Positions 16,390 to 34,009 of a stretch of DNA of 64,000 nucleotides are shown piece by piece. Position 1 is the first letter of the stretch, and each line of letters starts with the position of its first letter. The notes under the pieces are model-generated. The model had not been told where the DNA came from and ran no database searches. It saw only the letters and a list, made by a program, of their open reading frames with translations. Origin of the DNA: a virus (Duplodnaviria > Heunggongvirae > Uroviricota > Caudoviricetes); IMG/VR virus record IMGVR_UViG_3300035208_005635, positions 1-64,000 of that record; one strand, 5' to 3'. Made by a program: the position numbers and the translations under genes.

Positions 16390-16395
16390 TTTTTC

Positions 16396-16815: not shown

Positions 16816-16818
16816 AGG

Positions 16819-16889: not shown

Positions 16890-17236
16890 TCTTTTAGAAA
16901 CGCTCTACCGTTGAGCTATTTCTCACCACCGAAGCTGGAGAATTATCGGAGTCTAACCGATGTCTTTTCTAATACGTCAGAGATAGTGGAATTGAACCAC
17001 TTTTTTACGGTTCCAAACCGTATATAATACCGTTATATCAATCCCTGGTAACGGTGTTCTTCCGTATCACCGCCTAAAAGAATAGATAGAAATTGTAATA
17101 TTAAAAGTATAATTAAAAATTTTTTCATATCCTCCTTGCTTATGTGGGAAGAGTGAGAGTCGCACTCCGCGGGGATTGAAACAATCACTTGGTCTACAGC
17201 CAAGTCTCGCCCTCTACGAGTCTACCTGCCCTTTTT

Positions 17237-17456
17237 ATTTTTCACATTTATTATAATCGTAATTAGGATTGTTTAATAATCTTTCTACACAATCTGTTAT
17301 ACTTTCTCCATCAGTGTGAGTTTTCCAGCAAAATTTTTTTACTGAATCAGCTTTGGTTTAATAGCATTCTGTGGAACATCCCGTAGTTAAAAAAGCTAAT
17401 CCTATTAAAGTTATTAGAAGGATAACTAAAATAATATTTTTCTTTTTTAAAGACAT
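17237..17456 (-). pseudogene. lipoprotein-like ORF interrupted by a single in-frame TAA
   Basis: MSLKKKNIILVILLITLIGLAFLTTGCSTECY-TAA-TKADSVKKFCWKTHTDGESITDCVERLLNNPNYDYNKCEK. Lipobox LTTGC. The downstream Cys-rich continuation has no Met. Could be two tiny ORFs, stop-codon readthrough or a nonsense-mutated gene. Confidence 0.3.
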
Positions 17457-17606
17457 CGGTTTACTCTCTTCGAAACTTCTTCGGATTGACATAATTAAAA
17501 AGTTTTTAAATAATTAAACATTTTATAGATACAATAAATCATTCCTATCCAAATCAGACATCCTAAAAATATAGCTATGTAGAATGAATTTATTAATTTT
17601 TTGGTT

Positions 17607-17900
17607 TTATTCATAAATTATTTTGCATCTAGTTAGACAGTCTTCTAGATTTTTAGTTATGTCTCTGGCACAATCTTTTCTACAATCATCAAGAGGTGTA
17701 GTGTTCTTTATTTTTTCTTTTATTAATTTTGTCTGTGCTTCTTTTTTTGTAATGTGTAATTTTTCACAAGCATTATTATCTCCTTTGCTACACTCTTCTA
17801 ATCTATAATCATTAAAAGCAGAAACAACTAAGAGAATTAATAATAGAATAACAATCCCTGATACCAATGTTTCTATCAATGTAAATCCTTTTGTATTCAT
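17607..17900 (-). CDS. prepilin-type N-terminal cleavage/methylation-domain protein (type IV pilin/pseudopilin-like)
   Basis: MNTKGFTLIETLVSGIVILLLILLVV carries the class III signal G|FTLIE. Cys-rich C-terminal domain. Confidence 0.6.
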   Translation of the reverse strand: MNTKGFTLIETLVSGIVILLLILLVVSAFNDYRLEECSKGDNNACEKLHITKKEAQTKLIKEKIKNTTPLDDCRKDCARDITKNLEDCLTRCKIIYE

Positions 17901-17918
17901 AAAGATTATAATTAATTT

Positions 17919-18248
17919 TTAATTATCTTCATCATAATAAATACTTGGCTTATGATTTTTATATCTAAAAACAGCAATAACTTTTTTTTCTTTTATTTTA
18001 TGTTCTTTATTAATAAATTTATTAAATTCTTTTAAAGCTTTCTTGCCTGCTGGACTGTTATCATAACACTTCTGATGAAAATGCTCATTATTGAGATTAC
18101 AAGGTATTATTCTTTCGTTTATTTCTTTACCGCAAATGTGGCAGATTGGTTTAGATGATACTTTAATAGAAAAGCATTTTTTAGCTTTTTTAATAATATT
18201 AAATCTATCTTTTGCACTTTTATATTTAGTATTTTTAATAAGAGTCAT
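17919..18248 (-). CDS. hypothetical zinc-finger protein
   Basis: CHICGKE ... CNLNNEHFHQKC. Confidence 0.35.
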   Translation of the reverse strand: MTLIKNTKYKSAKDRFNIIKKAKKCFSIKVSSKPICHICGKEINERIIPCNLNNEHFHQKCYDNSPAGKKALKEFNKFINKEHKIKEKKVIAVFRYKNHKPSIYYDEDN

Positions 18249-18433
18249 TTATTTAATAAATCTTTATTATTGTTATTATTCCAAGCTCTAAATTTTATTT
18301 CACGCATATTTTTATTTTAAGCCAAACATATATTTTATTCCGCAAAAAATAAATATTATTAAAGCAAGAACTTTTAAAATTGGTATAATGTGTTCCGTAT
18401 TTGTATTATATTATTAAGCTTTATTTGGCTTAT

Positions 18434-18652
18434 TTAATTTAATCTATTGCATTCATCAGAAATTCCTTTGTCATATATTCTTGCAATTTTATTTTTTAAC
18501 CATTCCTTAAATTTATCAAGATTTTCCCAACTTTTGAAAACACATTCAGGAGCGTTCTCCCCAAATTTTTCATCAAATTCTTTTATAATAAAGGTTTCAA
18601 ATTTCTTATATTCTTTTTCTTTAATCATTCTTTCTTTTGAAAATTTACCCAT
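18434..18652 (-). CDS. hypothetical protein
   Basis: 72 aa charged ORF. Confidence 0.3.
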   Translation of the reverse strand: MGKFSKERMIKEKEYKKFETFIIKEFDEKFGENAPECVFKSWENLDKFKEWLKNKIARIYDKGISDECNRLN

Positions 18653-18937
18653 ATATTTATTTGATTATTAGTCTAATGCTTTCTCCTAAAAATACTGCAA
18701 GAGGAGCAAAGAGAAAAAGTATCGAAAAAGCTAAATAAAACAAATCTCCATTCTTACGAAAACAAGCTAGATTATATCCGCAACATATTCCGCAAAACAT
18801 AATAAAAAATGGATGATACATAGTATTATTTAAAATAAAATGTTACATTATAAAAAAGGAAACCAAAATAAATATAAAATCCGTATTTATATCTAACTGT
18901 TATGCTTGGTGTAATTTCAATTCATCCTTTTTCTTTT

Positions 18938-19315
18938 TTAAATTGTATTCTCATAATTATTGTGTTTATTCCAGTCTTTTCTACCGGTTGAATTATTTAT
19001 ACGCTTAACTCTAATATTTACTTTTGCTAAATCTACCTCACAATCGTCAACGGCAATATCTACATTCTCATTCTTTTCTTTTATACAAATTTCGTCATAT
19101 TTTAAACCTAGTTTTTCTGCCCATCTTTTTGCGTAGTCTATTCCTCCTCCCGACCAGATTATCATATAATTTCCCTGAGATTGAAACCATTTATACAGGG
19201 CGATATTTTCATAGTTAGGAGTATCTACTTGTAGTCCTGTGGCTACTGCCGGAACTATTAAAGTATCGTCTACATCAAACGCAATAACAATTTTATTATT
19301 TACCATATTTTTCAA
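18938..19315 (-). CDS. small HAD-superfamily phosphatase-like protein
   Basis: IAFDVDDTL matches HAD motif I (DxDxT). Confidence 0.45.
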   Translation of the reverse strand: MKNMVNNKIVIAFDVDDTLIVPAVATGLQVDTPNYENIALYKWFQSQGNYMIIWSGGGIDYAKRWAEKLGLKYDEICIKEKNENVDIAVDDCEVDLAKVNIRVKRINNSTGRKDWNKHNNYENTI

Positions 19316-19517
19316 TTATTTTTTCATCAGCTATAGATTTCATACCTTCTAAATAGTTTCTTGTAATCTCTGACAATATTAGAGCGTGTAACCAAGAGAT
19401 ATAAACTTTACCTTTATTCTGAAAATTAGAACTAATTTTTATAGTTATATCGAGAGCCTCTTTTTTAAATTCTTCTAATGTTTTTGTTTTCATATTTTCA
19501 GCAGTATAAATCCTCAC
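19296..19517 (-). CDS. hypothetical protein
   Basis: 73 aa ORF. Confidence 0.3.
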   Translation of the reverse strand: MRIYTAENMKTKTLEEFKKEALDITIKISSNFQNKGKVYISWLHALILSEITRNYLEGMKSIADEKIIEKYGK

Positions 19518-19917
19518 TGAATAAAGTCTTTCCTCGGTATCCTTCAGGGTCGGCAGATTTTATCCCTGCTTCTTCTTGAAGTTTTCTTCCTTCTTCTCTA
19601 GATACATATCTTCCATAATTGGTTAAAAATCCTTGCTCATCCATCATATTCATATGCAACATTTCTTTTCTTGAATGATTAAAAGATACTTCTTCTGTAA
19701 TTGTTCGCATACAATCTCCGTGTCTATGTCCTCTGTATATTTTTCCATTATACTTTATCGCCGCACATAAACAAATCTCTGGCAAAAGACTTGCTTTGGC
19801 TATTTCAAGCATCTCAGCATATTTCTTTTCATACCATTCTATTGGTTGACAGTCTTTGACCGCTTGCTCACATTCAGAAATACACTTTTCAAATAATTCT
19901 AAAGGTTTGTTTAACAT
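19498..19917 (-). CDS. hypothetical protein
   Basis: 139 aa ORF. Confidence 0.35.
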   Translation of the reverse strand: MLNKPLELFEKCISECEQAVKDCQPIEWYEKKYAEMLEIAKASLLPEICLCAAIKYNGKIYRGHRHGDCMRTITEEVSFNHSRKEMLHMNMMDEQGFLTNYGRYVSREEGRKLQEEAGIKSADPEGYRGKTLFSEDLYC

Positions 19918-20079
19918 AAAATTATCTCATTGCAAAGAAGTTTTCCATTAAACATTTTTCGCAAATATTTGGATTGAATAAATCTTTTTTCTCAATAATT
20001 TTACCACACTGTTTACAAACAGGTTTTGTTTCAAATAATTCTAATTGTTTTTTATCTGATTTTTTCATTTCAAAAAAGG

Positions 20080-20607
20080 CTAACTTTTCTGCTGTGTTAA
20101 ATCTATCAACTTTGAGCCTTTAGGTAAAATATTTATTAACTTTCCCATACCTTCGAAAGTATCTTCATTTGAAAAATTACCTTCTTCTGAATGAATGCAG
20201 TGTAAGAAAGATTCTTTTTTACCTAAACCGAATATTCTGCAAATATATGGTCTAGCTTCGTATATTCCACAGCCCTCAGGAGTTAAGTATAAACATTTAG
20301 GCATTTCAGAAATAGATTTTTTTCTTAAAAGATATTCTTCATCCGCATTAAGGGAATTAGGAAGTATATATCCAAAGCCTTTTTGAGTTTCTTCTATTAA
20401 AGGAAAATTTAGCTTATTTTTTTCTATAAATCTATTTATTAATAATCTTTCGACTGGGGCACAACCAGTAACCGTGCAACATTCAAATTTACATTTACCG
20501 CTTTTACAAAGATTATGACAATCTACTTTTGCCTTTGGAATATTTTTATAGATTTCTTGAACTTCCTTTTCTATGTCTTGAATTGTCTTGATTTCTATTT
20601 TTGACAT
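20080..20607 (-). CDS. YkgJ/UPF0153-like CxxCxxCC domain protein (paralog 2 of 3)
   Basis: CHNLCKSGKCKFECC motif. Confidence 0.45.
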   Translation of the reverse strand: MSKIEIKTIQDIEKEVQEIYKNIPKAKVDCHNLCKSGKCKFECCTVTGCAPVERLLINRFIEKNKLNFPLIEETQKGFGYILPNSLNADEEYLLRKKSISEMPKCLYLTPEGCGIYEARPYICRIFGLGKKESFLHCIHSEEGNFSNEDTFEGMGKLINILPKGSKLIDLTQQKS

Positions 20608-21269
20608 TTTTGTAATAAATATGAATTAGCTAGTATCTGCATATCATTTAGCATTCTAGGTTTTAATGCGGGATTATATAAACCAACAGCTGGATGAAAC
20701 ATCGGGACAATAGAAACATTTTCAGTTGCTTTGGTTAGACTTTTTTTATTTTTAAACTCTTTACCTGCTAAAAATGAAATAGGTTTTATTTCATCTTCTA
20801 AGCCATAAAGAGAAAATATTGATATTAAGGCTATACCTCCTAGCGGGACAATAAACGGATGCGGGCAGAGGCAAGTAGCAGTAATTATTTCAGCGACTAA
20901 TAAATCTTGGCAGTTATCCATTTCTTCTAAATCAGGCTTTCTATTCATCGGCGGTCTGCACTTTATAGTATTTGTTATATAGTAATCTTCTTTTTTTAAT
21001 CCTGAAGCTTCTATTAAATTATTTAGGAGCTTTCCAGATAGTCCTACAAAAGGTCTTCCTGTTTTTTCTTCCTCTGCTCCCGGTGCTTCTCCTATGAATA
21101 AAATGTTTGCTGGTAATGTTCCTCTTCCTTTAACATATTTATTATTACATATAGAACATTTTTTACATCGGCTATTACCGCAAAAAGTTACCGAGTAGGC
21201 TAAGTCCATTAATTTTCTTGCTTCTACTTTTTTATCTAATATATTATGTTTATCATTTAGAAACGACAT
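20595..21269 (-). CDS. uracil-DNA glycosylase, family 4-like
   Basis: GEAPGAEEEKTGRPFVGLSGKLL (motif A). NTIKCRPPMNRKP. HPAVGLYNP (motif B). N-terminal Cys cluster consistent with the Fe-S centre of family 4. Confidence 0.7.
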   Translation of the reverse strand: MSFLNDKHNILDKKVEARKLMDLAYSVTFCGNSRCKKCSICNNKYVKGRGTLPANILFIGEAPGAEEEKTGRPFVGLSGKLLNNLIEASGLKKEDYYITNTIKCRPPMNRKPDLEEMDNCQDLLVAEIITATCLCPHPFIVPLGGIALISIFSLYGLEDEIKPISFLAGKEFKNKKSLTKATENVSIVPMFHPAVGLYNPALKPRMLNDMQILANSYLLQKCQK

Positions 21270-21622
21270 TGTTTTAATTTTCTTAGCTTTTTTAGCTGGC
21301 TTATTAAATTAATTATCTCATTTTTATCTAGTTGTCCTATATGTCCTGTGGAAGTATTCTTTGCCATCCAAATATACATTAAATTTCTTTCTCTATGCGA
21401 CCAAACTTCTGAGGCTATTTGATGAGCTAGAGTTCTAAGCTCTCTGACTTCTCTAGTTACTGGGAAACCTACTGGACTTCCGTCTGGATGAGCTTCTAAG
21501 AATATATCACACTCTAAGGGACATTTAAAAAAGTATCGTTTAAACTTTCCCCCGTAAATTAGCTTCATCCGATTTTTGCATATCGGACAAATCGGTTGAG
21601 GTAGTTTTTCTCTCATCTGCAT
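21257..21622 (-). CDS. hypothetical Zn-finger protein
   Basis: CPICKNRMK ... CPLECD. Confidence 0.35.
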   Translation of the reverse strand: MQMREKLPQPICPICKNRMKLIYGGKFKRYFFKCPLECDIFLEAHPDGSPVGFPVTREVRELRTLAHQIASEVWSHRERNLMYIWMAKNTSTGHIGQLDKNEIINLISQLKKLRKLKQCRF

Positions 21623-21830
21623 ATGGTTTTATTGCCTCATTAAGTTCCTTAAGTTCCTTGCTAAATTCTTCCTGAGTGATGTTTTCAGGATTAACTTGGT
21701 CGAATTTTTCATTCATTTTAGTAGCAATATCAACAGCCATTTTATTTTGTTCTTTATAATAATTAAGAACTAAGAAAGGAGCTTTAACTAGAGCGATTAA
21801 TACTCTAAAGATTTTTTTTATAAATTTCAT
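21540..21830 (-). CDS. hypothetical protein (overlaps its neighbours; may be shorter)
   Basis: 96 aa ORF. Confidence 0.25.
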   Translation of the reverse strand: MKFIKKIFRVLIALVKAPFLVLNYYKEQNKMAVDIATKMNEKFDQVNPENITQEEFSKELKELNEAIKPYADERKTTSTDLSDMQKSDEANLRGKV

Positions 21831-22665
21831 AATTGCAAGGGACAGGAATAGGAGAGGGTTGCTTAACTAAGTCTTTCATTCTCTCAAAAGCCTGTTCCAT
21901 TATTCTTCCTAAAGATTTGCTTTTGACTTCTTTCTTTTTCTTTTCTGGTTTATCGAAATCAAAAACATATTTTGTATAATTATCTAGAATAAAACAAATT
22001 TCCTGAAGAGCGAAGAAAACAAAATAAGACAGAGATAAAGATTCGGCTAAAGATTTAATAGGAAACCAAATCAAAATTAAGAGAAACCAAAATATAGAAG
22101 TCGTCACGCAATAAGAAAACATTGCTTTTGCTCTAATTCTTTTTAGAAGCTCAAACTCTAGCAGACATTTAATTTTTTCAAATTTATATATTTGAGGATT
22201 TTTTCTTCTAAGAAAAATCTCGTCATAATCAACCGCTTTCATAATCAATTTTAATAATTGGATAACTTCCGCAATAATAATAAAAGTAAAAATTAAATAA
22301 AAAAGTATTGTTACTATCAACGGTGATTTAGGTCCTTTGGTTAAAATAGAAACAGCAGGATAAAAAACAAAGACAAAAAGAATAAGACTGGCAATCATTA
22401 TCTTTTTGAAAGTTACTTGGACTTTATATTTGTTCTTAGTATATTTTGATTTCTTAACGAAATGCAAAATTACTCTTTCTGTTATTTTAAATAGAAACTT
22501 ATCTAGAGGTCTTAAAATTTTATTGTTGAAAGCGGTATTAGGAAGTCTGATTTCTTGAGGAAGTTCTTCCTCTCCTTTGAAATTATTAGCGTCTATTTCT
22601 ACAAATTCTACAAACTTTTCTTCTTCCTTATCTTCCTTGTTTTCTTTTTTAATTTCTTGAGTCAT
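21805..22665 (-). CDS. hypothetical polytopic membrane protein
   Basis: Acidic N-terminus followed by at least four hydrophobic helices. Lies downstream of conserved promoter P3. Confidence 0.45.
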   Translation of the reverse strand: MTQEIKKENKEDKEEEKFVEFVEIDANNFKGEEELPQEIRLPNTAFNNKILRPLDKFLFKITERVILHFVKKSKYTKNKYKVQVTFKKIMIASLILFVFVFYPAVSILTKGPKSPLIVTILFYLIFTFIIIAEVIQLLKLIMKAVDYDEIFLRRKNPQIYKFEKIKCLLEFELLKRIRAKAMFSYCVTTSIFWFLLILIWFPIKSLAESLSLSYFVFFALQEICFILDNYTKYVFDFDKPEKKKKEVKSKSLGRIMEQAFERMKDLVKQPSPIPVPCNYEIYKKNL

Positions 22666-22690
22666 ATTTTTGTCATTTAATTATATTAGT

Positions 22691-22738
22691 ATTATAGCGT
22701 ATTCTGCCTTTTTTGTCAATAGCTAATCTGTGGATAAC
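22691..22738 (-). promoter_or_regulatory. conserved sigma70-type promoter P3
   Basis: In gene orientation: GTTATCCACAGATTAGCTA then TTGACA-N17-TATAAT. The -35 hexamer maps to 22714-22719 and the -10 to 22691-22696. Confidence 0.65.
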
Positions 22739-22742
22739 TTTT

Positions 22743-25700
22743 TTAAACTCCTTGGGGTATATTCATTGGAGGCTTTGCTATTTTCGGGTCTTGAGCAGGG
22801 TCTTCTTCAGTATCTTTTGATTCTGTAGGTCCATAAAGAGATTCTTCAAACTTACAAGTATCTTCATTAACTATGAAAAATCTTTCTCCGCTTTTTCCGT
22901 GTCTATTTTTATCTATGTTTATTCTAGCCCATTTCTCTAGTTCGCGATTTGCCATTCTCTTTCTCCAGAGTAAAGCAACTATATCAGCATCTTGTTTTAT
23001 TGCTGAACTGTCTTTCAAGTCTTCCATAGTCGGCTTGTCATTATCGTTTCCTAATTTTTTAATATGACAAATTAAAACTACAGGAACCATTAGCTTTCTA
23101 GCAAGCAATTTGCAATATCTAACTATATCAGAAATTTCTATTGTTCTATTTCTACTGTCTCCCGAGGCAAAGAAATGCAAGTGGTCGATAAATATAATTC
23201 TGCAACCAAAGTCTTTAACTGCTTTTTCTGAAACAGAACCTAATAATTGCGTATTTATTTTTTCGTAGCCCGAATATAAATAAATAGGTTTGCTAGCGAT
23301 ACCTTTATAAACTTCTTCTAGCTTAGAAAATTCTCCTTTGGCGTCTTTTTTAATTAACTCTGATTGGCGAACGTTTCCTTGAAGCATCATAAATCTCTCA
23401 GCTATTTCTTCAGGAGTCTGTTCTAAACTAAAATACATTACTGGTATAGGGTCTGGATTATTTTTTTCGTCTTTGTGGTTGACAATATTCATAACCATAT
23501 TTTGCGTAAAGAAAGTGTTATGATTAATAATAAAATTTTCGAGAATATACAATTGGTCTTTATCAAGAGAAAATCCATAGTAGTCTCCGACAGGCCACTC
23601 CCAAATTCTAAATCTAGTAGTCAACCAATTTATGTCTGTGACTTCTTTTTTTACTATTTTTCTTTTTACCTTTAAAGGTATTCTTTTTACGTCTCCTGAA
23701 ATATAAACTCTATAACTTTGAAAGTTTCTTCCCAAGCAAGTGGTTGTTCTTTCTTTTAGAGTAGAGGCAAAGAACCCCAAAGACCGAGCCAAGAAAATAA
23801 CGTCTTCACAAAGCTGTTTATTCTTATTAGAAAAAGAGTATCCTACTTTTTCTTTATTACCGTCACTGTCTATTAAGCCTGCTAATAATTCTAGTCTATT
23901 TTTCTCAGAGTTTATCTTATAATTTTGTGGTATATGCTTATTCTCTATGAGATTTTCTTTCTTTAAGAGGCTTAACAAAGATAGGGCAGAACCGTATCCC
24001 TTCTTGCCTGTTTTATATATGTATTTTCCTTTGTGTGTTTTGTTCACACCTTCAAATTTCTTTTCTCTCGTTAAACAATAATACTTTGATTTATTGTTTG
24101 GTTGGTTTTTTGTAACCAGTTGAAGATTTAATCTATTTGCGTAATCTCTTAAATATTTTTCTATCTCAAAATCAGCAGAGGTAACACAAGGTCCTGAGCT
24201 TGTTCCATCACCTAACCATAACCCCAGAAAGTAAGGTTCAAGAGATACTTTTTTCTCTTTAAACTTTATTGATTTTGGGTGTTCAAGATAATAAACGTGT
24301 TTTCTCTTACTCGCAAGTTTTATCCAGTTATCTATTGTGATATCGATTGTATCTGGGTAGTGCGGATACTTTTTAGTATTTTTCTTAAGGTGTAGCAAAT
24401 GATTTCTGTTAACCACAAAATTCTCTGCACCTTTTTTAGGTTCAACTTTCCACATTTTTTCTCTGCCTCTTGCTAATTTTAAAACCGTCCTCGGAGTGCT
24501 GTCAGGACCCATTAACTTGTCTCCAATTTTTATGTCCTCTACTTTTTTTAAAGTTCCGTTATACATTAACACCTTTGTTCCCTTAGCGTGGCACTTTCCA
24601 ACGCCAGTGTCTCCAGAAATAACAATTAGATTTCCGTCTCGCATTCCACGCCATACATCGTCTAATAATTTCCAACCGGTAGACATTCCTCTGAGGACAT
24701 TTGGATTCTTCATTTCTTCCATTGCGGTTTTAGCAACTTCTTTTATTTTTTTTATATGCTCGCTTTCAACGGTTATTTTTTTAGCGGAGTTGTATAAATT
24801 ATTAAAATCGTCTACTGTTTTTTTCTTAACCGCAAAAAAGTCATTTAAGTCTTTTTGTCCAGGCTCTTTTGGTATTTCTATTATTCGACATCTGCTGGCT
24901 CCTAATTTTTCTATAGCGAGTAAATTTCCTTTTTGACCTGCCTCATCGTTGTCATAACAGTTATGAGAAATTACTTTTTGTTCTGTAATATAGCTATGGT
25001 CGTCTTTTACATCTATATTATAAGTTTCTTCATCTATTACCTGTTTAATAGATATTTTTCTTACTCTATTTAAAAGATAAAAATTTTCCCAGAATTTTTT
25101 CATCTGAACTTGACATTTTTTACTAGGAGATATCTCAGCAAGACTAACTGTATATCTTTTTTTCCAAGTTTTTTCTTTATACGACCAATCGTGTGTTGTA
25201 AATCCGTAACCACACTGTAGAGCAAGAATTTCAAAGAATTTAATAATAGACTCGTTTGTATTACTAAATTTAATGTATTTATATTTTTTATCTATTGTTC
25301 CGTCTGAATCTATTAGACCTTGCAATATCTCTTTCTTATTAAGGGAGCTACGAAATATATCATAAGAAACACTTTTCATTCTAGGCATCATTTTAGATGA
25401 GTCTCCTGCAACCTCTTGATAAAAATTCTTAAACCCATATAATCTAGAATCATACGAATATAAACATCCTATATTTCCTTTCTCTACTGTCGAATATTTT
25501 ATTTTATATTTGTCAAAGAATTTTTTTACTCTTTCCAAAATATGCTTTTTTGTTTTTGTGTTATATGCCAATTCAAATCTATACTTTCTTGAGTAATGTC
25601 CGTCTCCTAAAAACAAACCCAAAAGATAAGAGAAGTCTTTATCTTGAATCATCTTCGTGTTAGCAATATCTATAAATTCTTCCCCAAACTCAGAACCTTC

Positions 25701-28010
25701 TTTTAATCTCCCCCTTTCGTCTCTTTCTGAAATCTTTTGAGTTATTCTTCTTTCAAAAAAGCTAAAGGATACTCCTAACTCCGAACCAAATTTAGGAAAA
25801 AGTAAATAGTCTCCTTCTCGAATTTCTCCCGCTTTTTTCCAAATAGGCTCTTTCAGAAATTCTCTTCTATTTTTTATATACTTAATATTTTCTTTTTCAT
25901 AAACAAGAATAGGATGATTACTTGTAACCCAATTCTCAGTATTTTTAGTTTGACCGACAATAGAAAACTTTCTCATTTCTCCTGAATACACATTCTTCAT
26001 TACTTTATAAACCTCTTTTAAATTTCCTATGTGAGTCCAAACACTATCAGAGACCTTAATATCCTCAATATTTTTTAATCCTTGACGAGTATAAATCTTT
26101 GTTCCTTTCTCATAGCATAAATAAATACTATTCACTTTCTGCATAGCATCTGCCCACTCTTGTTTGAATGTCTGAGCTCCACAGGTTACGCTTACAACAT
26201 TCTCCCAACCTTCCTGATAAAGGCTCATTGCGTCTATTTCTCCTTCGGTAATAACTAATTTATTCGCTCCTTTGATTACATCTCCGTTAAACAAAACCAT
26301 TTTTCCTCCGTGGACATTCATCATTTTAGGAGCTTCTGGGTCGAGGGGATTTCCTCGGTATCTAATATTTACCACTTTGCTGTTTTCAAATATTGGAATA
26401 GAAATGCTGGTTCCCGTCCAACCTATTTTAAAATGCTCTAATGTTTCAGGTAATAGCTTTCTAGTAACTGTTAAATATTCATAAATTTGACCCGTTACTG
26501 AGTTCTTGTCGTCTTTCTTCTCAAGTAGAGTCTTGTGATACTCTTCAATCGAGGTCTGGTATCTCTTCATTTCTACCTCGCTAGGACCTTTATTCTCCTT
26601 CTCCTGAGGTTTTTCTAGCTCTTGCGGGGATTTTACTGTCTCAGATAAATTACGCGAATTAGAGCCATTAGAGGGCTCAATTTCAGGTTTTGTATAATCA
26701 TTATAAAATTTCGCTAATGTTATTATATTTCCAGATTTACCGCAATTATGAACAGCACAACCTGAGACATTATAAGTATGACTATCTTCTACGGTTAAGT
26801 CATAAACATCTACATTTTTAACTTCTGTAGTAACTATTTTCTTTAAAAATTTTATTCCTTTTACAGAATTTTCTGAACAATCCCAACGAATAGTCCAACA
26901 TTTTTTATGGTGAACTCCTTTTTTATCTATTTTTTCTTCCTCTGAATTTATAGAAGCAGTTCTTCCTAATCCCCACAAGGCAAAATATATCTGAATAGCT
27001 AATTTCTTTGATACTGTTTTGCTAGAATTTTGTTTTTTAAACCCGTCTCCTGCAAAATACCCTTCTAAGATGTTTGGTAAAATATTAGAAGATAGAAGAC
27101 AGTTGGGTATATGTTTATTTTCTGCCCCCCTCCCGCAATTCTTTTCAAACCATCTTTCTAAGTAAACTCCAAAAACTTGAAGACTCTCTCCATTAGGACT
27201 AATAGAGGATTGAAGAGAGTTGAATCCATATTTCGTAAATAGTTTTTTTACTCTGTCTATGTTCTTCTGCTCTTTTTTATGAAAGGCAAAAGTAATACAT
27301 CTAGAAGATTTAGCTCCGTCTGCAATATATAATCCTACGCACCACCAAAATTCTCCGTCATTAAACATTTCTTCTGTAATAACTTTCGGCACAGGTCCTT
27401 TGGCTGATAAAATATAACTAGAAGCATCGCCACAATAATTAGGATAAAATCTGCTTACTTCATAAATATCTCGCCTATCAATTATGGGCATCTCCAAACC
27501 ATATAAAGGTTTTATTTTATCTGCCTCCAGCCAAATAGATTGTTTTGCTAAAGATTTAAAATTTCTTTTTTGATTCTTTAACTTTTTACTTCTAGGATTA
27601 CAGGAAAAAACAGATAAGAGATGGTTGGGAGTGCAAGTTATGTCTAGTAAATCTATAGAAGAATTACAAGACAAAGTAGTAAGCTTTCCTGTATATTTTC
27701 TCGAGATAGTATTGAGAACCTCTTTGTATCTTCCTTCTTTTGTTAAGACAAAATCGCCCTTTTTTATGTCTCTAATTTCTTTTATTCCGTTGCTTGTTCT
27801 TACCAAAGAATTTCCTGTGAAACATTTATGACAAAAATATAAACCTTTAGTGCTAATATAAAAATGGGTCCAATCTTCTTTATTTTCTCTGCAAAAAGGG
27901 CATTTATTAGTAATAATCTGGTCGCCTTCTGCTCTAGTTTTTAGTCCTTTGCTTTGAAGATAGTTAGTTATCTCTGAGGCAGTGGGATTAATGAAGTTTA
28001 AAGGAGTCAT
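22743..28010 (-). CDS. DNA primase-helicase (CHC2 zinc finger + Toprim + DnaB/gp4-like helicase) interrupted by three inteins
   Basis: The extein totals about 650 aa. It has a CPFC..H..C zinc finger, a Toprim domain (VITEGEIDAMS ... YDNDEAGQ), a P-loop ISGDTGVGK|T and a later helicase region (IFIDHLHF, LICHIKK). Three Hint insertions begin at CFTGNSLV, CYEKGTKI and CHAKGTKV; each ends in HN followed by C, C or T. Confidence 0.8.
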   Translation of the reverse strand: MTPLNFINPTASEITNYLQSKGLKTRAEGDQIITNKCPFCRENKEDWTHFYISTKGLYFCHKCFTGNSLVRTSNGIKEIRDIKKGDFVLTKEGRYKEVLNTISRKYTGKLTTLSCNSSIDLLDITCTPNHLLSVFSCNPRSKKLKNQKRNFKSLAKQSIWLEADKIKPLYGLEMPIIDRRDIYEVSRFYPNYCGDASSYILSAKGPVPKVITEEMFNDGEFWWCVGLYIADGAKSSRCITFAFHKKEQKNIDRVKKLFTKYGFNSLQSSISPNGESLQVFGVYLERWFEKNCGRGAENKHIPNCLLSSNILPNILEGYFAGDGFKKQNSSKTVSKKLAIQIYFALWGLGRTASINSEEEKIDKKGVHHKKCWTIRWDCSENSVKGIKFLKKIVTTEVKNVDVYDLTVEDSHTYNVSGCAVHNCGKSGNIITLAKFYNDYTKPEIEPSNGSNSRNLSETVKSPQELEKPQEKENKGPSEVEMKRYQTSIEEYHKTLLEKKDDKNSVTGQIYEYLTVTRKLLPETLEHFKIGWTGTSISIPIFENSKVVNIRYRGNPLDPEAPKMMNVHGGKMVLFNGDVIKGANKLVITEGEIDAMSLYQEGWENVVSVTCGAQTFKQEWADAMQKVNSIYLCYEKGTKIYTRQGLKNIEDIKVSDSVWTHIGNLKEVYKVMKNVYSGEMRKFSIVGQTKNTENWVTSNHPILVYEKENIKYIKNRREFLKEPIWKKAGEIREGDYLLFPKFGSELGVSFSFFERRITQKISERDERGRLKEGSEFGEEFIDIANTKMIQDKDFSYLLGLFLGDGHYSRKYRFELAYNTKTKKHILERVKKFFDKYKIKYSTVEKGNIGCLYSYDSRLYGFKNFYQEVAGDSSKMMPRMKSVSYDIFRSSLNKKEILQGLIDSDGTIDKKYKYIKFSNTNESIIKFFEILALQCGYGFTTHDWSYKEKTWKKRYTVSLAEISPSKKCQVQMKKFWENFYLLNRVRKISIKQVIDEETYNIDVKDDHSYITEQKVISHNCYDNDEAGQKGNLLAIEKLGASRCRIIEIPKEPGQKDLNDFFAVKKKTVDDFNNLYNSAKKITVESEHIKKIKEVAKTAMEEMKNPNVLRGMSTGWKLLDDVWRGMRDGNLIVISGDTGVGKCHAKGTKVLMYNGTLKKVEDIKIGDKLMGPDSTPRTVLKLARGREKMWKVEPKKGAENFVVNRNHLLHLKKNTKKYPHYPDTIDITIDNWIKLASKRKHVYYLEHPKSIKFKEKKVSLEPYFLGLWLGDGTSSGPCVTSADFEIEKYLRDYANRLNLQLVTKNQPNNKSKYYCLTREKKFEGVNKTHKGKYIYKTGKKGYGSALSLLSLLKKENLIENKHIPQNYKINSEKNRLELLAGLIDSDGNKEKVGYSFSNKNKQLCEDVIFLARSLGFFASTLKERTTTCLGRNFQSYRVYISGDVKRIPLKVKRKIVKKEVTDINWLTTRFRIWEWPVGDYYGFSLDKDQLYILENFIINHNTFFTQNMVMNIVNHKDEKNNPDPIPVMYFSLEQTPEEIAERFMMLQGNVRQSELIKKDAKGEFSKLEEVYKGIASKPIYLYSGYEKINTQLLGSVSEKAVKDFGCRIIFIDHLHFFASGDSRNRTIEISDIVRYCKLLARKLMVPVVLICHIKKLGNDNDKPTMEDLKDSSAIKQDADIVALLWRKRMANRELEKWARINIDKNRHGKSGERFFIVNEDTCKFEESLYGPTESKDTEEDPAQDPKIAKPPMNIPQGV
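23517..24593 (-). mobile_element. intein 3 (359 aa, LAGLIDADG) inside the helicase Walker A motif
   Basis: The extein reads GDTGVGK-[intein]-TFFTQ. Begins at CHAKGTKV. Contains YFLGLWLGDG and LAGLIDSDG. Ends IINHN with a +1 Thr. Confidence 0.75.
24960..26117 (-). mobile_element. intein 2 (386 aa, LAGLIDADG) within the Toprim domain
   Basis: Begins at CYEKGTKIYT. Contains LLGLFLGDGH and LQGLIDSDGT. Ends ISHN with a +1 Cys (CYDNDEAGQ). Confidence 0.75.
26745..27824 (-). mobile_element. intein 1 (360 aa, LAGLIDADG homing endonuclease) within the primase zinc-finger region
   Basis: Begins at CFTGNSLV. Contains LYIADGAKS and GYFAGDGFK. Ends VHN with a +1 Cys. Confidence 0.75.
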
Positions 28011-28021
28011 AATTTATTATT

Positions 28022-29026
28022 TTAATTTATTAAAGTTGTGCCGGTTAAGACACCTTCAATGTATTTTATATAGCTTTCTTGGTCTTCTTTGCTTATTTTA
28101 GAATAAAAATAACCAAAACATTCGCCGAGTATCTTGTCGTTACTGAAAAACCAGACAGGAGGACGGCTGTGATTTTTGTCTTTGTGCCAAGAATCTCTGT
28201 AAAAGCCGATAATTGCTAAGCTAATATCTAAAGGGCTGAAACTTAACAAAGCTTTCTTTAAAGCAATATCCGCAGGGTTGCCTATTAAAATCTTTCCTGA
28301 AGTGGCGTTGACTGAAACGAACTTCCAGTAAATCTCAAATATTCTTTTTCTAATTTCTGAAGAAAACTCTCCCCACTGTTTTATATCTTCCTGAAGAGGT
28401 GATTTAGAAATCATTTCAGGAGATTTTTTGGGTGAATCGAGAGGGAGAGTCTCTCTCTCTCTTTTCTTATTATTATATATATTATTATTGTATGTGGTTT
28501 TCACATAGCTTGGTATGTGATTTTCACATAGGTCTTCTGTGATTTTCACATAGCCTATGTGATTTTCACATACGTCTTTATTTTTGACAAAATCACCTTT
28601 TTGTTTTAATTTTATTTTCCCTAAAATTACTGTATCATACCAAAGTTGGGTAGTCTTGATATATTTAGTTTCAGGGTCTCTTTCTATTAATCCTTTTCTT
28701 TGAAGATTTGACAGAATGTTAAAAATAGACCACTGTTTAAATCCTAGCATTTGACTAATTTTTTTCTTTGAAGCATAGCACCACCCAGGGACTCTACTGC
28801 CAGGATTATTAGAAAGATTATAAATACTGTCTGCTACGCAATATTCATTCAGAGATAAGTCTAGTTTCCTTCTTGCCTCGTGTAATATAAGGGAATAACT
28901 AAGAACTTCTTTTTCTACTTCTTTATTTTCTTTTGGCATAGAATCACAAGTAAGGTTAATAAAAATACAGTATTCGGTTGTCATTGCTATTGCCCCCCAC
29001 TTGCGGTGATTAGCAATAGATAACAA
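28022..29026 (-). CDS. replication initiator-like protein (lambda O-like) with winged-helix region and internal origin iterons
   Basis: 334 aa. HTH-like region (QMLGFKQWSIFNILSNLQRKGLIE). Four palindromic iterons inside the coding sequence encode a repeated ...CENHI... peptide. Confidence 0.5.
   Translation of the reverse strand: MLSIANHRKWGAIAMTTEYCIFINLTCDSMPKENKEVEKEVLSYSLILHEARRKLDLSLNEYCVADSIYNLSNNPGSRVPGWCYASKKKISQMLGFKQWSIFNILSNLQRKGLIERDPETKYIKTTQLWYDTVILGKIKLKQKGDFVKNKDVCENHIGYVKITEDLCENHIPSYVKTTYNNNIYNNKKRERETLPLDSPKKSPEMISKSPLQEDIKQWGEFSSEIRKRIFEIYWKFVSVNATSGKILIGNPADIALKKALLSFSPLDISLAIIGFYRDSWHKDKNHSRPPVWFFSNDKILGECFGYFYSKISKEDQESYIKYIEGVLTGTTLIN
28451..28575. repeat. candidate origin: (CT)6, an AT-rich tract and four palindromic iterons TATGTGAtttTCACATA at about 21-bp spacing
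   Basis: GTGATTTTCACATAG at 28517, 28539 and 28559, and GTGGTTTTCACATAG at 28494. tattattatatatattattattg at 28466-28489. ctctctctctct at 28451-28463. Confidence 0.6.
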
Positions 29027-32250: not shown

Positions 32251-33987
32251 TTACCCCTTCATATTATAATATTTTCCAACTTTACTGTCAGATAAAGATT
32301 CATAATATGTAGAAAGGTTTTTTAATTGTTCGTGTTCCATTCCAATAACAAACGAATGAAGTATTATTTTTTTCTTTTCTAAAAATTCTTTTGTCAAACT
32401 TACATTATCTCCTCCGTCTGTGATGACAAGAATGTCCGCTCTGTCATATAAATCACTCTTGTCGCTAGGGTCTTGCTTAAATAATTTAGGGTTGTTAATG
32501 TCGTTTATTGCTTGGTGAATTGCTCCGTCTATGCTTGTTCCTCCCCCAGAATGACGATATTCCATTAGGAATTTAACTTCTTTTTTTGCTTCTTCCTCGT
32601 TGGTTACTTTTTTTAAATCGTGAGGTTGGTCGTCAAAGAATCTATAAAAATAGATACTTTTTTCTGTTAAGGCTTTTTTGACATAGGCTAAGGCTATACC
32701 ACAGGCTACTGTTTGATTTCTTCCGTCCATCGAGCCTGAGCAGTCAATCAATAAATAAATAATCTGCTTTTTCTTTCTGCGACTTTCAAACTGTTTCATT
32801 TTCAAGTCCTTGTCAAAAAGCATTTTGTCAAATAGCTCGTCTGGGTATCCAAACTGGTAAGGGAGAATATTCGGCAAGTCGTTTACCGACCTAATGTTTT
32901 GTATCTTCCAGTCTTTTTCAGGATAGTCTACGGGCGAACGCTGTTCTTCTCGGCAGTATTGTTCTGTTGCCCCTATTTTTCTAGCAATGTCTAAAATTCT
33001 ATAAGTTTCATCATCAACTTTTTGAGCTATCTTTTCGATATTTTTAGCCAGCCCTTCGATAGTCTTTAAAGAATTATGACCTGTTCCTGCTTGTCGTTCT
33101 ATTATTCCTCGAAACAATTCATCATCAAAAATATTATTCTCTAGAGCTTTTTCTATATCGGGTATTTTCTGATTAAATTTATCCATATCAATAGGCAAGT
33201 CCGGCGGGTTATCACTCATCTCTGTTTCTGGGGAGGTATCCATTTCTTCTTCTCCTTCTCCTTGAGGTTTGTTGTTATCTCCTTGACCTTGAGAAGAATC
33301 GCTTTTGCTATTTTTTCCTTGACTGCCACCTCCTTTTTGTTGACCTTGGGATTGAGAATTTTCTTCTTGCTCTTGTTTATCTTGTCCTTTGCTTTCTTGA
33401 TTTTGTTCCTCTGAATTTTCTTGTTCTTCTTCTCCCCCTTTACCTTTTCCTTTACCTTTTCCCTCACCTTCTCCTTCTCCTTCGCCCTCACCTTCGCCTT
33501 CTTTTTGCTCTTTGTCATCTTGACCTTGTTGACCTTCTCCTTTCTCTGATTGCTCTTGCTGTTCTTGTTTTTCACCCTGTTGACCTTTTCCTTTCTGTTT
33601 CTTCGGGTCAGGAGGTTTAGGACTAAACATATCAAGAATTATTCTGAGAGCTTCTTCAGGGTTATTTATGCCCTGTAATTGTTGAAATAATCTAGTGTGG
33701 CCGAACTCTCTGAGAAATTTTCTTACGGCATCATAATGATAATAGACTTTATAGTAATCTCTTAATCTTTTTTTAATATATCCATCAGCGACTTCGTCAT
33801 CTATCTCCATAGGTGTTTTTAGGATTTTGCTAGGATTAAGAGTTTCAAATAAAGCGAATAAATCTTTTGAGAAGTCCAAAGAAACTTTTTCTTTTGTTTC
33901 GGGGTTTATAGCTTCGACTTTTTCATCGGTTATTACTTCAACGGTTTCTGCTTGAGGCAAGGTTAATTGTTTATTAGTTACTCTCAT
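32251..33987 (-). CDS. von Willebrand factor A (vWA) domain protein with long low-complexity E/Q/G/K linker
   Basis: C-terminal MIDAS motif YLLIDCSGSMDG. Central region rich in GEGEGEGE/KGKGKGKG/QEQQEQ. Confidence 0.6.
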   Translation of the reverse strand: MRVTNKQLTLPQAETVEVITDEKVEAINPETKEKVSLDFSKDLFALFETLNPSKILKTPMEIDDEVADGYIKKRLRDYYKVYYHYDAVRKFLREFGHTRLFQQLQGINNPEEALRIILDMFSPKPPDPKKQKGKGQQGEKQEQQEQSEKGEGQQGQDDKEQKEGEGEGEGEGEGEGKGKGKGKGGEEEQENSEEQNQESKGQDKQEQEENSQSQGQQKGGGSQGKNSKSDSSQGQGDNNKPQGEGEEEMDTSPETEMSDNPPDLPIDMDKFNQKIPDIEKALENNIFDDELFRGIIERQAGTGHNSLKTIEGLAKNIEKIAQKVDDETYRILDIARKIGATEQYCREEQRSPVDYPEKDWKIQNIRSVNDLPNILPYQFGYPDELFDKMLFDKDLKMKQFESRRKKKQIIYLLIDCSGSMDGRNQTVACGIALAYVKKALTEKSIYFYRFFDDQPHDLKKVTNEEEAKKEVKFLMEYRHSGGGTSIDGAIHQAINDINNPKLFKQDPSDKSDLYDRADILVITDGGDNVSLTKEFLEKKKIILHSFVIGMEHEQLKNLSTYYESLSDSKVGKYYNMKG

Positions 33988-34009
33988 ATTTATAAACGAA
34001 ATTTAAGAA

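What the first reader, a model, noticed from the sequence alone, without database searches (positions are those of the whole stretch)
22743..28010. Primase-helicase carrying three LAGLIDADG inteins, one splitting the Walker A P-loop
A 650-aa extein (CHC2 Zn finger, Toprim, DnaB-like helicase) is expanded to 1755 aa by three Hint/LAGLIDADG insertions. Each sits at a catalytic hot spot: the zinc finger, the Toprim DxD region, and GDTGVGK|T. With the FolE intein this makes four inteins in 64 kb, which is high even for jumbo phages, and every one gates an essential replication or modification enzyme.
Basis: seen in the sequence. Interest (0 to 1): 0.6.

Follow-up and report, generated by a model that had tools for sequence, protein, structure and literature searches.

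The report
Phage primase-helicase with three inteins
One gene of an uncultured phage encodes its DNA primase-helicase interrupted by three self-splicing, mobile protein elements (inteins) at its zinc, primase and ATP sites; this is a real and tidy multi-intein case, but of a well-known kind.

Summary
ORF 22743..28010 (-) encodes 1755 aa, made of a 650-aa T7-gp4/Twinkle-type primase-helicase plus three in-frame insertions (aa 63-422, 632-1017, 1140-1498). Each insertion starts with Cys and ends His-Asn before Cys, Cys or Thr. Each is a clean gap in intein-free homologues. Removing them in silico restores continuous Toprim and DnaB_C matches. All three have Hint blocks A/B/F/G and two LAGLIDADG motifs. 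Profile and fold searches hit PI-SceI, PI-PkoII and I-DmoI.

The sites are the fourth Cys of a Cys4 zinc ribbon (not CHC2), two residues before the Toprim DxD, and Walker A GK|T, the "classic" P-loop site. An 88%-identical relative carries only intein 3, whose splicing and nuclease parts are both under purifying selection. Inteins 1 and 2 have rare same-site relatives elsewhere.

A fourth intein splits FolE at its CEHH motif, but it carries an HNH nuclease, not LAGLIDADG.

Best reading: independent selfish homing inteins that must all splice before the enzyme can work. "Gating" and "high even for jumbo phages" are untested. Three-intein proteins exist elsewhere. This is a new member of a known kind, of modest interest.

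The parts
22743..28010 (-). Precursor ORF of 1755 aa: primase-helicase interrupted by three inteins
   Evidence: ORF listing. Pfam DnaB_C, Toprim_2, Hint and LAGLIDADG families. The identical protein is already in a public library as P0122.
27825..28010 (-). Extein segment 1 (aa 1-62): N-terminal part of the Cys4 zinc ribbon, holding ligands C37, C40 and C60
   Evidence: These Cys are invariant in 13 aligned homologues. A weak Zn_ribbon_DnaG hit appears only after in-silico splicing.
26745..27824 (-). Intein 1 (aa 63-422, 360 aa). Class-1 LAGLIDADG intein inserted between K62 and the fourth zinc-ligand Cys (C423 is the +1 residue)
   Evidence: Cys1, block B TPNH, block F/G VYDLTVEDSHTYNVSGCAVHN|C, LAGLIDADG motifs VGLYIADG and LEGYFAGDG. 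Full-length match to the intein-family profile, E=1e-60. Matches PI-PkoII. Absent from all close homologues; P0020 has an intein at the same site.
26118..26744 (-). Extein segment 2 (aa 423-631): end of the zinc ribbon, linker, and first half of the Toprim domain (ITEGEID glutamates)
   Evidence: Invariant C423, E589 and E591. Toprim_2 match is continuous after splicing.
24960..26117 (-). Intein 2 (aa 632-1017, 386 aa). Class-1 LAGLIDADG intein inserted before C1018 of CYDNDEAG, two residues upstream of the Toprim DxD
   Evidence: Cys1, TSNH, TYNIDVKDDHSY...ISHN|C, motifs LGLFLGDG and LQGLIDSDG. Family profile hits PI-PkoII at 2e-32 and PI-SceI at 8e-18. AF2 model pLDDT 83.9 matches PI-SceI, TliVMA, PI-PfuI and I-DmoI by Foldseek. 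Same-site relatives in P0123 and P0124.
24594..24959 (-). Extein segment 3 (aa 1018-1139): Toprim DxD (D1020, D1022), linker, and Walker A up to GDTGVGK
   Evidence: Invariant D1020, D1022, G1133, G1138 and K1139.
23517..24593 (-). Intein 3 (aa 1140-1498, 359 aa). PI-SceI-family LAGLIDADG intein inserted between Walker A Lys1139 and Thr1499
   Evidence: Hom_end_hint 82 bits and Hom_end 45 bits. PI-SceI E=1.7e-22, aligned at both ends. Shared with P0001, P0009, P0010, P0012 and P0014. dN/dS 0.04 against the relative L002. Same K|T position in the Klebsiella phage MEW1 helicase.
22743..23516 (-). Extein segment 4 (aa 1499-1755 plus stop): rest of the SF4 DnaB-like helicase domain
   Evidence: DnaB_C matches 1-254 of 255 profile positions in one stretch, 160.5 bits, after splicing. 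Matches DnaB and T7 gp4 structures.
55736..56566 (+). Fourth intein of the window (aa 211-487 of the FolE ORF 55106..56896). HNH-type intein inserted before the Cys of the GTP cyclohydrolase I CEHH motif
   Evidence: Pfam Intein_splicing 72.5 bits, HNH_3, and GTP_cyclohydroI split into two stretches. Junctions FYSH|CLTGDT...VVHN|CEHH.

Best explanation
The gene encodes a T7-gp4/Twinkle-type bifunctional primase-helicase of an uncultured tailed phage. It consists of a Cys4 zinc ribbon, a Toprim primase domain and an SF4 DnaB-like helicase. Three different class-1 inteins, each carrying a LAGLIDADG homing endonuclease, have invaded it independently. The gene is translated as a 1755-aa precursor.

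Each intein would excise itself by the standard four-step route: N-S acyl shift at Cys1, transesterification to the +1 Cys or Thr, cyclisation of the terminal Asn, then an S/O-N shift. This joins the four extein pieces into the 650-aa enzyme. In the precursor the zinc ribbon lacks its fourth ligand in place, the Toprim fold is split two residues before its DxD metal site, and the Walker A loop is split between Lys and Thr. The enzyme should therefore be inactive until all three inteins have spliced.

At the DNA level, each endonuclease would cut the conserved intein-free allele in a co-infecting relative and copy the intein in (homing). That explains why the inteins sit at the most conserved codons and why they are patchily distributed among relatives.

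Shown: anatomy, homology, exact boundaries, patchy distribution, and purifying selection on intein 3. Inferred: actual splicing, endonuclease activity, and inactivity of the precursor.
For: Exact boundaries: all three insertions are clean gaps in intein-free homologues of 645-703 aa at about 52% identity. The closest relative P0001 (88% extein identity, 82% at the DNA level) lacks inteins 1 and 2. Its empty sites match the spliced window DNA in register.

In-silico splicing restores single continuous matches: DnaB_C 160.5 bits (against 137.4 bits in two stretches) and Toprim_2 58.2 bits (against 43.8).

Splicing residues are complete in every intein: Cys1, T/NxxH, block F, HN, and +1 C/C/T, with no proline after the +1 residue.

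Nuclease: each intein has two LAGLIDADG motifs that keep the acidic residue.

Homology and fold: intein 3 matches PI-SceI at 1.7e-22. The intein-2 family profile matches PI-PkoII at 2e-32 and PI-SceI at 8e-18. The intein-2 model (pLDDT 83.9) matches PI-SceI, TliVMA, PI-PfuI and I-DmoI. Intein 1 matches the same profile at 1e-60.

Independent origins: the three inteins are only remotely alike (best pairwise E=1e-10). Each has same-site relatives in other hosts: P0020; P0123 and P0124; and P0001, P0009, P0010, P0012 and P0014 plus the MEW1 helicase.

Selection: intein 3 has dN/dS 0.03 in the Hint part and 0.05 in the nuclease part, against 0.06 for the extein.

Host family: T7 gp4 structure 6n7i aligns across Toprim plus helicase, E=3e-21.

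Literature: the K|T P-loop site is described as the classic intein site, and a phage TOPRIM protein has an intein in its active site (PMC5050341). DnaB site b uses the P-loop Ser as the +1 nucleophile (PMC6195587).
Against: There is no direct evidence of splicing or of DNA cleavage; everything rests on sequence and a predicted structure. On its own, intein 1 scores just below several Pfam curated cut-offs (Intein_splicing 28.1 vs 35.8; LAGLIDADG_3 22.3 vs 22.5). Its support comes from the family profile and from its boundaries. dS is saturated (1.2-1.5), so the dN/dS values are approximate. No co-conversion tract marks a recent invasion at sites 1 or 2. Gain in this lineage therefore cannot be told apart from precise loss in the relative. 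The AF2 model was built from an alignment of inteins, so it is not independent of the homology evidence.
Confidence: 0.9

Rival explanations
1. The inteins act as regulators. One or more would splice only under certain conditions, such as redox state, zinc level, temperature or DNA binding, and so time phage replication. For intein 1, its own Cys1 occupies the sequence position of the fourth zinc ligand in the precursor (CPFC...CHK-C). Zinc bound by the ribbon could then sequester the splicing nucleophile.
For: All four inteins sit where splicing is a precondition for activity. Two of the four use as +1 nucleophile a Cys that is a zinc ligand in the mature enzyme: C423 of the ribbon, and the Cys of FolE's CEHH motif. 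That the CEHH Cys binds zinc is from my own knowledge of GTP cyclohydrolase I. Conditional splicing and reversible zinc inhibition through the catalytic Cys are documented for mycobacterial DnaB inteins (PMC6195587, PMC7360933). The nuclease part of intein 3 is conserved as strongly as the extein.
Against: Nothing in the sequence shows conditionality. Close relatives do without inteins 1 and 2, and many do without any, so none of them is needed for the phage's life cycle. Insertion at active-site nucleophiles is the general rule for selfish inteins and needs no regulatory explanation (PMC4760082, PMC5050341). Intact LAGLIDADG motifs and patchy distribution fit ongoing homing.
Confidence: 0.1
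2. One or more insertions are decayed inteins that no longer splice, so the gene is a dead or dying copy.
For: Splicing is untested. Intein 1's individual Pfam scores are marginal.
Against: The 5.3-kb reading frame is intact in 31% G+C DNA (P about 1e-56 by chance). Every catalytic residue of all three inteins is present. No second primase-helicase or DnaB-like gene turned up among the window's ORFs of 150 aa or more that were scanned. Intein 3 and the extein are under strong purifying selection.
Confidence: 0.03
3. The three-intein arrangement is an assembly chimera of strain variants, each carrying one intein, and no single genome has all three.
For: The source appears to be metagenomic. The nearest relatives carry one intein or none.
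Against: The identical 1755-aa protein is present in a public protein library (P0122). The extein segments between the inteins diverge evenly from the relative L002 (about 82%), with no jumps in identity at the junctions. The sites are 366-627 nt apart in the intein-free gene, and each intein adds more than 1 kb of unique sequence, which assemblers bridge readily.
Confidence: 0.03

Closest known systems
PI-SceI (yeast VMA1 intein) and the PI-SceI family of LAGLIDADG inteins (Pfam Hom_end_hint / Hom_end)
   Same: Intein 3 aligns to PI-SceI at both ends and through the nuclease domain (E=1.7e-22). It shares the block B Asn-x-x-His variant and two LAGLIDADG motifs. The intein-2 model has the same two-domain fold.
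   Different: The host is a phage SF4 helicase rather than a V-ATPase. Intein 3 is 359 aa against 454 aa for PI-SceI. Sequence identity is low outside the conserved blocks.
The 'classic' P-loop intein site: DnaB site b, mycobacteriophage TerL1-a, MCM-a and RFC (PMC4760082, PMC5050341, PMC6195587)
   Same: Intein 3 lies between the invariant Walker A Lys and the Thr/Ser that serves both as Mg2+ ligand and as +1 splicing nucleophile. Its closest relatives in cultured phages sit at the same K|T position of a different type of helicase in Klebsiella phages.
   Different: The M. smegmatis DnaBi1 intein at this site is a class-3 mini-intein without a nuclease. Intein 3 is class 1 (Cys1) with a full LAGLIDADG domain. 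No DnaB intein structure appeared among its PDB sequence matches.
Mycobacteriophage (cluster A1) TOPRIM inteins and bacterial DnaG inteins (PMC5050341, PMC4760082)
   Same: An intein inside the Toprim active-site region of a phage primase-type protein, as for intein 2.
   Different: I could not check whether the residue position is identical. Intein 2 has no detectable sequence relative in cultured phages at this site. Its only same-site relatives are two metagenomic proteins at 41-43% identity.
Multi-intein replication proteins: haloarchaeal MCM (four sites, PMC10643990) and M. smegmatis DnaB (two inteins, PMC6195587)
   Same: Several non-allelic inteins in one essential replicative helicase gene, with combinations that vary between strains.
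   Different: Here three sites are occupied at once in a phage gene, spread over the zinc ribbon, primase and helicase modules. In the searched literature the phage examples had one intein per protein (for example CB7, three inteins in three proteins, PMC7344957).
T7 gp4 / Twinkle primase-helicase
   Same: The extein has the same module order: Cys4 ribbon, Toprim, SF4 helicase. It aligns to the gp4 structure 6n7i over residues 212-630. JGI names relatives 'twinkle protein'.
   Different: Only distant sequence similarity. gp4 has no inteins.

Membership tests
Class 1 intein (Hint domain) | In-frame insertion with exact boundaries that is absent from orthologues | tested here: met
   Clean gaps at all three sites in 13 aligned homologues. 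Empty-site DNA of L002 matches the spliced window DNA.
Class 1 intein (Hint domain) | Block A nucleophile (Cys/Ser1) and block B T/N-x-x-H | tested here: met
   Block A / block B: CFTG.../TPNH, CYEK.../TSNH, CHAK.../NRNH. The Asn variant is the one seen in PI-SceI. C1, T65 and H68 are invariant in the intein-2 family alignment.
Class 1 intein (Hint domain) | Blocks F and G ending His-Asn, followed by a +1 Cys/Ser/Thr | tested here: met
   AVHN|C, ISHN|C and INHN|T, with block F VYDLTVEDSHTY, TYNIDVKDDHSY and DYYGFSLDKDQLY.
Class 1 intein (Hint domain) | Hint fold | tested here: met
   Intein 2: AF2 pLDDT 83.9 and Foldseek hits to PI-SceI, TliVMA, PI-PfuI and PI-PkoII at E=1e-11 to 1e-17. Inteins 1 and 3 were tested by profile or sequence only.
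Class 1 intein (Hint domain) | Protein splicing demonstrated | not testable with these tools
   Needs expression or proteomics.
LAGLIDADG homing endonuclease (two-motif, intein-borne) | Two LAGLIDADG motifs that keep the catalytic acidic residue | tested here: met
   Intein 1: YIADG and FAGDG. Intein 2: FLGDG and IDSDG. Intein 3: WLGDG and IDSDG. Pfam LAGLIDADG_3 gives 50 bits for intein 2 and Hom_end 44.8 bits for intein 3; intein 1 is marginal at 22.3 vs 22.5. Intein 1 aligns to the PI-PkoII nuclease domain.
LAGLIDADG homing endonuclease (two-motif, intein-borne) | Site-specific DNA cleavage and homing | not testable with these tools
   Indirect evidence only: patchy distribution among relatives, and dN/dS 0.05 on the nuclease part of intein 3.
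T7 gp4 / Twinkle-type primase-helicase | N-terminal zinc ribbon with four Cys ligands | tested here: met
   C37, C40, C60 and C423 are invariant. The Pfam Zn_ribbon_DnaG hit is only weak (E=8e-4, below cut-off) and appears only after splicing.
T7 gp4 / Twinkle-type primase-helicase | Toprim domain with conserved Glu and DxD | tested here: met
   Toprim_2 58.2 bits, 1-87 of 88 profile positions. Invariant E589, E591, D1020 and D1022.
T7 gp4 / Twinkle-type primase-helicase | C-terminal SF4 (DnaB-like) helicase fused in the same chain | tested here: met
   DnaB_C 160.5 bits, full length. DnaB structures E=3e-25. T7 gp4 structure 6n7i E=3e-21 across Toprim plus helicase.
Conditional (regulatory) protein splicing | Splicing rate responds reversibly to a physiological cue | not testable with these tools
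No sequence signature exists.
DnaB-b intein lineage (mycobacterial DnaBi1 type) | Same P-loop insertion position | tested here: met
   GDTGVGK|T. The site is described in PMC6195587.
DnaB-b intein lineage (mycobacterial DnaBi1 type) | Class 3 mini-intein related in sequence to DnaBi1 | tested here: not met
   Intein 3 begins with Cys1, carries a full nuclease domain, and belongs to the PI-SceI family. No DnaB intein is among its PDB matches at E<=0.01. It shares the site but is a different intein lineage.

The most novel reading that the evidence does not exclude
The zinc-ribbon intein (intein 1) could be a built-in metal or redox switch. In the precursor, the intein's own Cys1 sits exactly where the fourth zinc ligand belongs (CPFC...CHK-C). 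Zinc loading of the unspliced ribbon would then hold the splicing nucleophile and delay primase maturation. The FolE intein, whose +1 Cys belongs to the enzyme's zinc site, might respond to the same cue. A phage would then time replication and DNA modification through metal-coupled protein splicing. Separately, three mutually divergent inteins that must splice in one chain without crossing over form a naturally orthogonal set.
Probability: 0.06. Interest if true: 0.6.

Novelty: new member of a known kind. Interest (0 to 1): 0.3.

Why it matters
The finding adds a clean, fully delimited case of three non-allelic homing inteins in one phage replication protein, with intein-free and single-intein relatives on hand for comparison. 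It also documents two rare insertion sites. I found the primase zinc-ribbon Cys site in only one other protein, and no paper in the searched library describes it. The site just before the Toprim DxD has only two same-site relatives.

The practical value is modest but real. Three divergent class-1 inteins that have to splice correctly within one polypeptide are candidates for orthogonal protein-ligation tools. Their nucleases are candidates for new LAGLIDADG specificities. The locus would suit experiments on homing between neighbouring sites in phages. It does not change how inteins are understood.

Tried and rejected
- **Single-sequence AF2 of intein 2** gave pLDDT 33 and was discarded. The alignment-based run replaced it.
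- **phmmer with the three inteins against the six-frame translation** found no further inteins and missed the FolE intein. The family profile and Pfam found it.
- **A weak LAGLIDADG-like hit in the small ORF 47139..47462** (E=4e-4) has no Pfam support and was dropped.
- **Exact-sequence contig look-up of the 1755-aa protein** found nothing, although the identical protein is in the representative library.
- **Word-indexed homologue searches with inteins 1 and 2** returned only 5 hits and 1 hit. The exhaustive HMMER scan was needed for intein 2.
- **The IMG/VR scan** found only distant relatives at no more than 33% identity, so it gave no population-level site occupancy.
- **The co-conversion test** around sites 1 and 2 showed no signal.
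- **Searches of cultured phages** found no record covering more than 46% of the ORF and no same-site relative of intein 2.
- **Literature searches** for an intein in a primase zinc finger or in a primase-helicase found nothing specific. That library is incomplete, so this is not proof of novelty.
- **Rejected alternatives:** introns or free-standing nuclease genes (the insertions are in frame, have no stops and have Hint ends), and the antisense ORF 24496..24936 as a real gene (it lies wholly inside the coding region on the other strand).
Full report
**1. The observation**

The ORF listing gives one ORF at 22743..28010 on the minus strand, ATG start, 1755 aa. With the window's base composition, a random codon is a stop with probability 0.07. 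An open frame of 1755 codons therefore has a chance of about 1e-56.

Pfam on the whole product finds DnaB_C (7e-40, in two stretches), Toprim_2, Hom_end_hint, Hom_end, LAGLIDADG_3, Hint_2, Hint and Intein_splicing. NCBIfam adds the intein C-terminal splicing region and partial DnaB and DnaG models.

Reading the sequence gives three insertions:

| Intein | Residues | Length | Window coordinates | Junctions |
|---|---|---|---|---|
| 1 | 63-422 | 360 aa | 26745..27824 | FCHK\|CFTGNS...AVHN\|CGKSG |
| 2 | 632-1017 | 386 aa | 24960..26117 | SIYL\|CYEKGT...ISHN\|CYDNDEAG |
| 3 | 1140-1498 | 359 aa | 23517..24593 | GDTGVGK\|CHAKGT...INHN\|TFFTQ |

**2. Are the insertions inteins?**

Four independent lines of evidence agree.

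*Comparative boundaries.* A search with the spliced 650-aa sequence found 132 relatives. Among them are intein-free proteins of 645-703 aa at about 52% identity (P0002 to P0008). There are also proteins of about 1000 aa with one insertion. The closest relative is P0001 (1008 aa, 88% extein identity).

In the alignment, all three insertions are clean gaps with flush edges in the intein-free proteins. Intein 3 is shared with P0001, P0009, P0010, P0012 and P0014. Intein 1 is shared only with the distant P0020, whose extein is about 36% identical, at the identical site. Intein 2 is in none of them.

At the DNA level, the empty sites 1 and 2 of the P0001 contig (L002) match the spliced window sequence in register.

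*Restoration of the host domains.* After in-silico splicing, DnaB_C becomes a single match over 1-254 of 255 profile positions (160.5 bits). Toprim_2 becomes a single match over 1-87 of 88 positions (58.2 bits). A weak zinc-ribbon hit also appears.

*Catalytic residues.* Every intein has the following:
- Cys1.
- Block B: TPNH in intein 1, TSNH in intein 2, NRNH in intein 3. The Asn variant is the one seen in PI-SceI.
- A recognisable block F.
- The terminal His-Asn.
- A +1 Cys, Cys or Thr, with no proline after it.
- Two LAGLIDADG motifs that keep the acidic residue.

*Profile and fold.*
- Intein 3 matches PI-SceI at 1.7e-22 across both ends and the nuclease domain.
- Intein 2 had no PDB sequence match on its own and almost no close relatives in the word-indexed search.
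- An exhaustive HMMER scan for intein 2 found 1834 relatives at E<=0.001. The full-length ones all have Cys1...HN|C/S ends and sit in many different host proteins.
- A 21-sequence alignment of these has invariant C1, T65, H68, the LAGLIDADG glycines, D272-G273 and H385-N386.
- The profile of that alignment hits PI-PkoII (2e-32), V-ATPase inteins, PI-SceI (8e-18), PI-PfuI, mini-inteins and I-DmoI.
- An AF2 model from the same alignment is confident (pLDDT 83.9, pTM 0.84). By Foldseek it matches PI-SceI, the TliVMA intein, PI-PfuI and PI-PkoII over both domains, and I-DmoI over the nuclease domain.
- Intein 1 matches the same family profile full-length at 1e-60 and the PI-PkoII nuclease domain directly. 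Its stand-alone Pfam scores are marginal.

**3. The host protein and the three sites**

The extein aligns to DnaB helicases (3e-25). It also aligns to the T7 gp4 primase/helicase structure 6n7i across Toprim plus helicase (3e-21). Several relatives are named 'twinkle protein' by JGI.

The N-terminal metal module has four invariant cysteines: C37, C40, C60 and C423, in the pattern CPFC...CHK|C. His61 is not invariant; it is Lys in P0017 and P0020. The module is therefore a Cys4 ribbon as in gp4, not the CHC2 finger of bacterial DnaG.

- **Site 1** separates K62 from C423, so the fourth zinc ligand is the +1 splicing nucleophile.
- **Site 2** lies before C1018 of CYDNDEAG, two residues upstream of the invariant D1020-x-D1022.
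- **Site 3** lies between the invariant Walker A K1139 and T1499.

The literature calls the Lys|Thr position the 'classic' P-loop intein insertion (PMC5050341). [quoted passage not shown] It also reports a mycobacteriophage TOPRIM protein with an intein in its active site (PMC5050341).

I found no paper on an intein in a primase zinc ribbon. The searchable library is incomplete, so this does not prove the site is new.

**4. Origins and dynamics**

The three inteins are only remotely similar to each other. The best pairwise match is intein 1 against intein 2 at E=1e-10, and intein 3 against the others reaches only about 3e-3. They are therefore separate acquisitions, not duplications.

| Intein | Closest relatives |
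|---|---|
| 1 | Same-site intein of P0020 at 36% identity; otherwise inteins in phage DNA cytosine methyltransferases at 24-29% |
| 2 | Same Toprim site in P0123 (another primase-helicase, 43%) and P0124 (a Toprim-only protein, 41%); no cultured phage has a detectable relative at that site |
| 3 | In cultured phages, at about 39% identity, at the same K\|T position of a different type of helicase in Klebsiella phages: MEW1 reads LATGGGK\|CLGKGT...VTHN\|TVIF |

Intein 3's DNA identity to the relative L002 (82.5%) equals that of the extein (82.1%). Its dN/dS is 0.04 overall, 0.03 in the Hint part and 0.05 in the nuclease part, against 0.06 for the extein. dS is saturated, so these values are approximate.

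Intein 3 was therefore inherited with the gene, and both of its domains are kept by selection. That fits continuing homing in a population where intein-free alleles exist.

There is no dip in identity around sites 1 or 2 that would mark co-conversion from a foreign donor. Gain here and loss in the relative cannot be told apart.

**5. Context**

The window is from an uncultured tailed phage. The gene is preceded by a DnaD-like helicase loader at 28022..29026.

The window also encodes:
- a family A DNA polymerase
- UDG
- a Cas4-like nuclease
- an amidase
- a chaperonin
- a large terminase at 61812..63512
- a 7-deazaguanine module: QueE-like at 51755..52486, FolE at 55106..56896, and a DpdA/TGT-like protein at 59690..60583

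Its polymerase is at most 34% identical to anything in GenBank phages. No GenBank phage covers more than 46% of the ORF. IMG/VR has only distant relatives. Nothing shows that the phage is a jumbo phage.

The FolE ORF does contain a fourth intein, aa 211-487 with junctions FYSH|CLTGDT...VVHN|CEHH. Its nuclease is HNH, and its +1 Cys is the Cys of the CEHH motif.

**6. How unusual is it?**

Several inteins in one replication gene are known, for example four sites in haloarchaeal MCM (PMC10643990) and two inteins in M. smegmatis DnaB (PMC6195587).

Among the 150 best representative proteins that carry relatives of intein 2, my end-counting finds 10 with three inteins. One of them is a DNA polymerase III alpha subunit.

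Among phages, CB7 (143 kb) has three inteins in three different proteins (PMC7344957). I did not find a described phage protein with three, and none of the 132 relatives of this protein has more than one.

The case is therefore uncommon and well defined, but it is an instance of a known phenomenon.

**7. Mechanism and rivals**

The best explanation (confidence about 0.9) is three independent selfish homing inteins. The precursor must undergo three standard class-1 splicing reactions before the zinc ribbon, Toprim metal site and Walker A loop are intact. Homing by the LAGLIDADG nucleases explains the placement at invariant codons and the patchy distribution.

The regulatory reading ('gates') cannot be excluded but has no support. 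Relatives function without these inteins. Active-site placement is the norm for inteins.

One structural point is worth an experiment. In the precursor, intein 1's Cys1 occupies the sequence position of the fourth zinc ligand, and zinc is known to block splicing by binding the catalytic Cys (PMC7360933). A zinc-dependent delay of primase maturation is therefore conceivable. I rate that at about 6%.

Decay to a pseudogene and assembly chimerism are each unlikely, given the intact frame and catalytic residues, the even divergence across junctions, and the identical protein in a public library.

**8. Verdict**

The corrections are Cys4 rather than CHC2, an HNH rather than LAGLIDADG nuclease in the FolE intein, and no evidence for 'jumbo' or 'gates'. 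It is a new member of a known kind, with interest 0.3.

Noticed in passing
window 55106..56896 (+): The FolE ORF is a three-part protein. An N-terminal phosphoribosyltransferase domain (aa 9-113) is fused to GTP cyclohydrolase I, which is itself split by an HNH-type intein (aa 211-487) right before the Cys of its CEHH motif. I did not look into the PRTase-FolE fusion.
   Followed up: partly
window 59690..61272 (+): A DpdA/TGT-like transglycosylase (59690..60583) is followed, with overlap, by a ParB-like protein (60550..61272). From memory this resembles the DpdA-DpdB pair that inserts 7-deazaguanine into DNA. With QueE-like (51755..52486) and FolE, it suggests this phage modifies its DNA.
   Followed up: no
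window 57238..58590 (+): A second radical-SAM protein of 450 aa lies between FolE and the DpdA-like gene. It has no PHROG match and its role is unknown.
   Followed up: no
window 12487..14103 (-): A phage-encoded Cpn60/GroEL-type chaperonin of 538 aa (Pfam Cpn60_TCP1, 6e-63).
   Followed up: no
window 32251..35236 (-): A MoxR-type AAA+ ATPase (34010..35236) sits next to a VWA-domain protein (32251..33987). A MoxR-VWA pair inside a phage replication module.
   Followed up: no
window about 46000: GC skew and AT skew change sign, and gene orientation switches from minus to plus. This is a divergent junction between two transcription or replication modules.
   Followed up: no
window 47139..47462 (+): A small 108-aa ORF gave a weak hit (E=4e-4) to the LAGLIDADG part of the intein-family profile, but it has no Pfam match at E<=1. 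Probably chance.
   Followed up: yes
window 24496..24936 (+): A 146-aa GTG ORF lies antisense to the primase-helicase coding region, across the start of intein 3. It is most likely spurious.
   Followed up: no
window 22743..28010 (-) / P0122: The identical 1755-aa protein is in the 50%-identity representative library. Yet the exact-sequence contig index has no record of it, and the word-indexed search with the extein did not list it.
   Followed up: partly
L002 6700..14800 compared with window 14558..22700: The 82%-identical relative keeps the same gene order (helicase, UDG, Band_7). Between UDG and Band_7 it carries an RtcB ligase and a free-standing HNH endonuclease gene. I did not check whether the window has them.
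   Followed up: no
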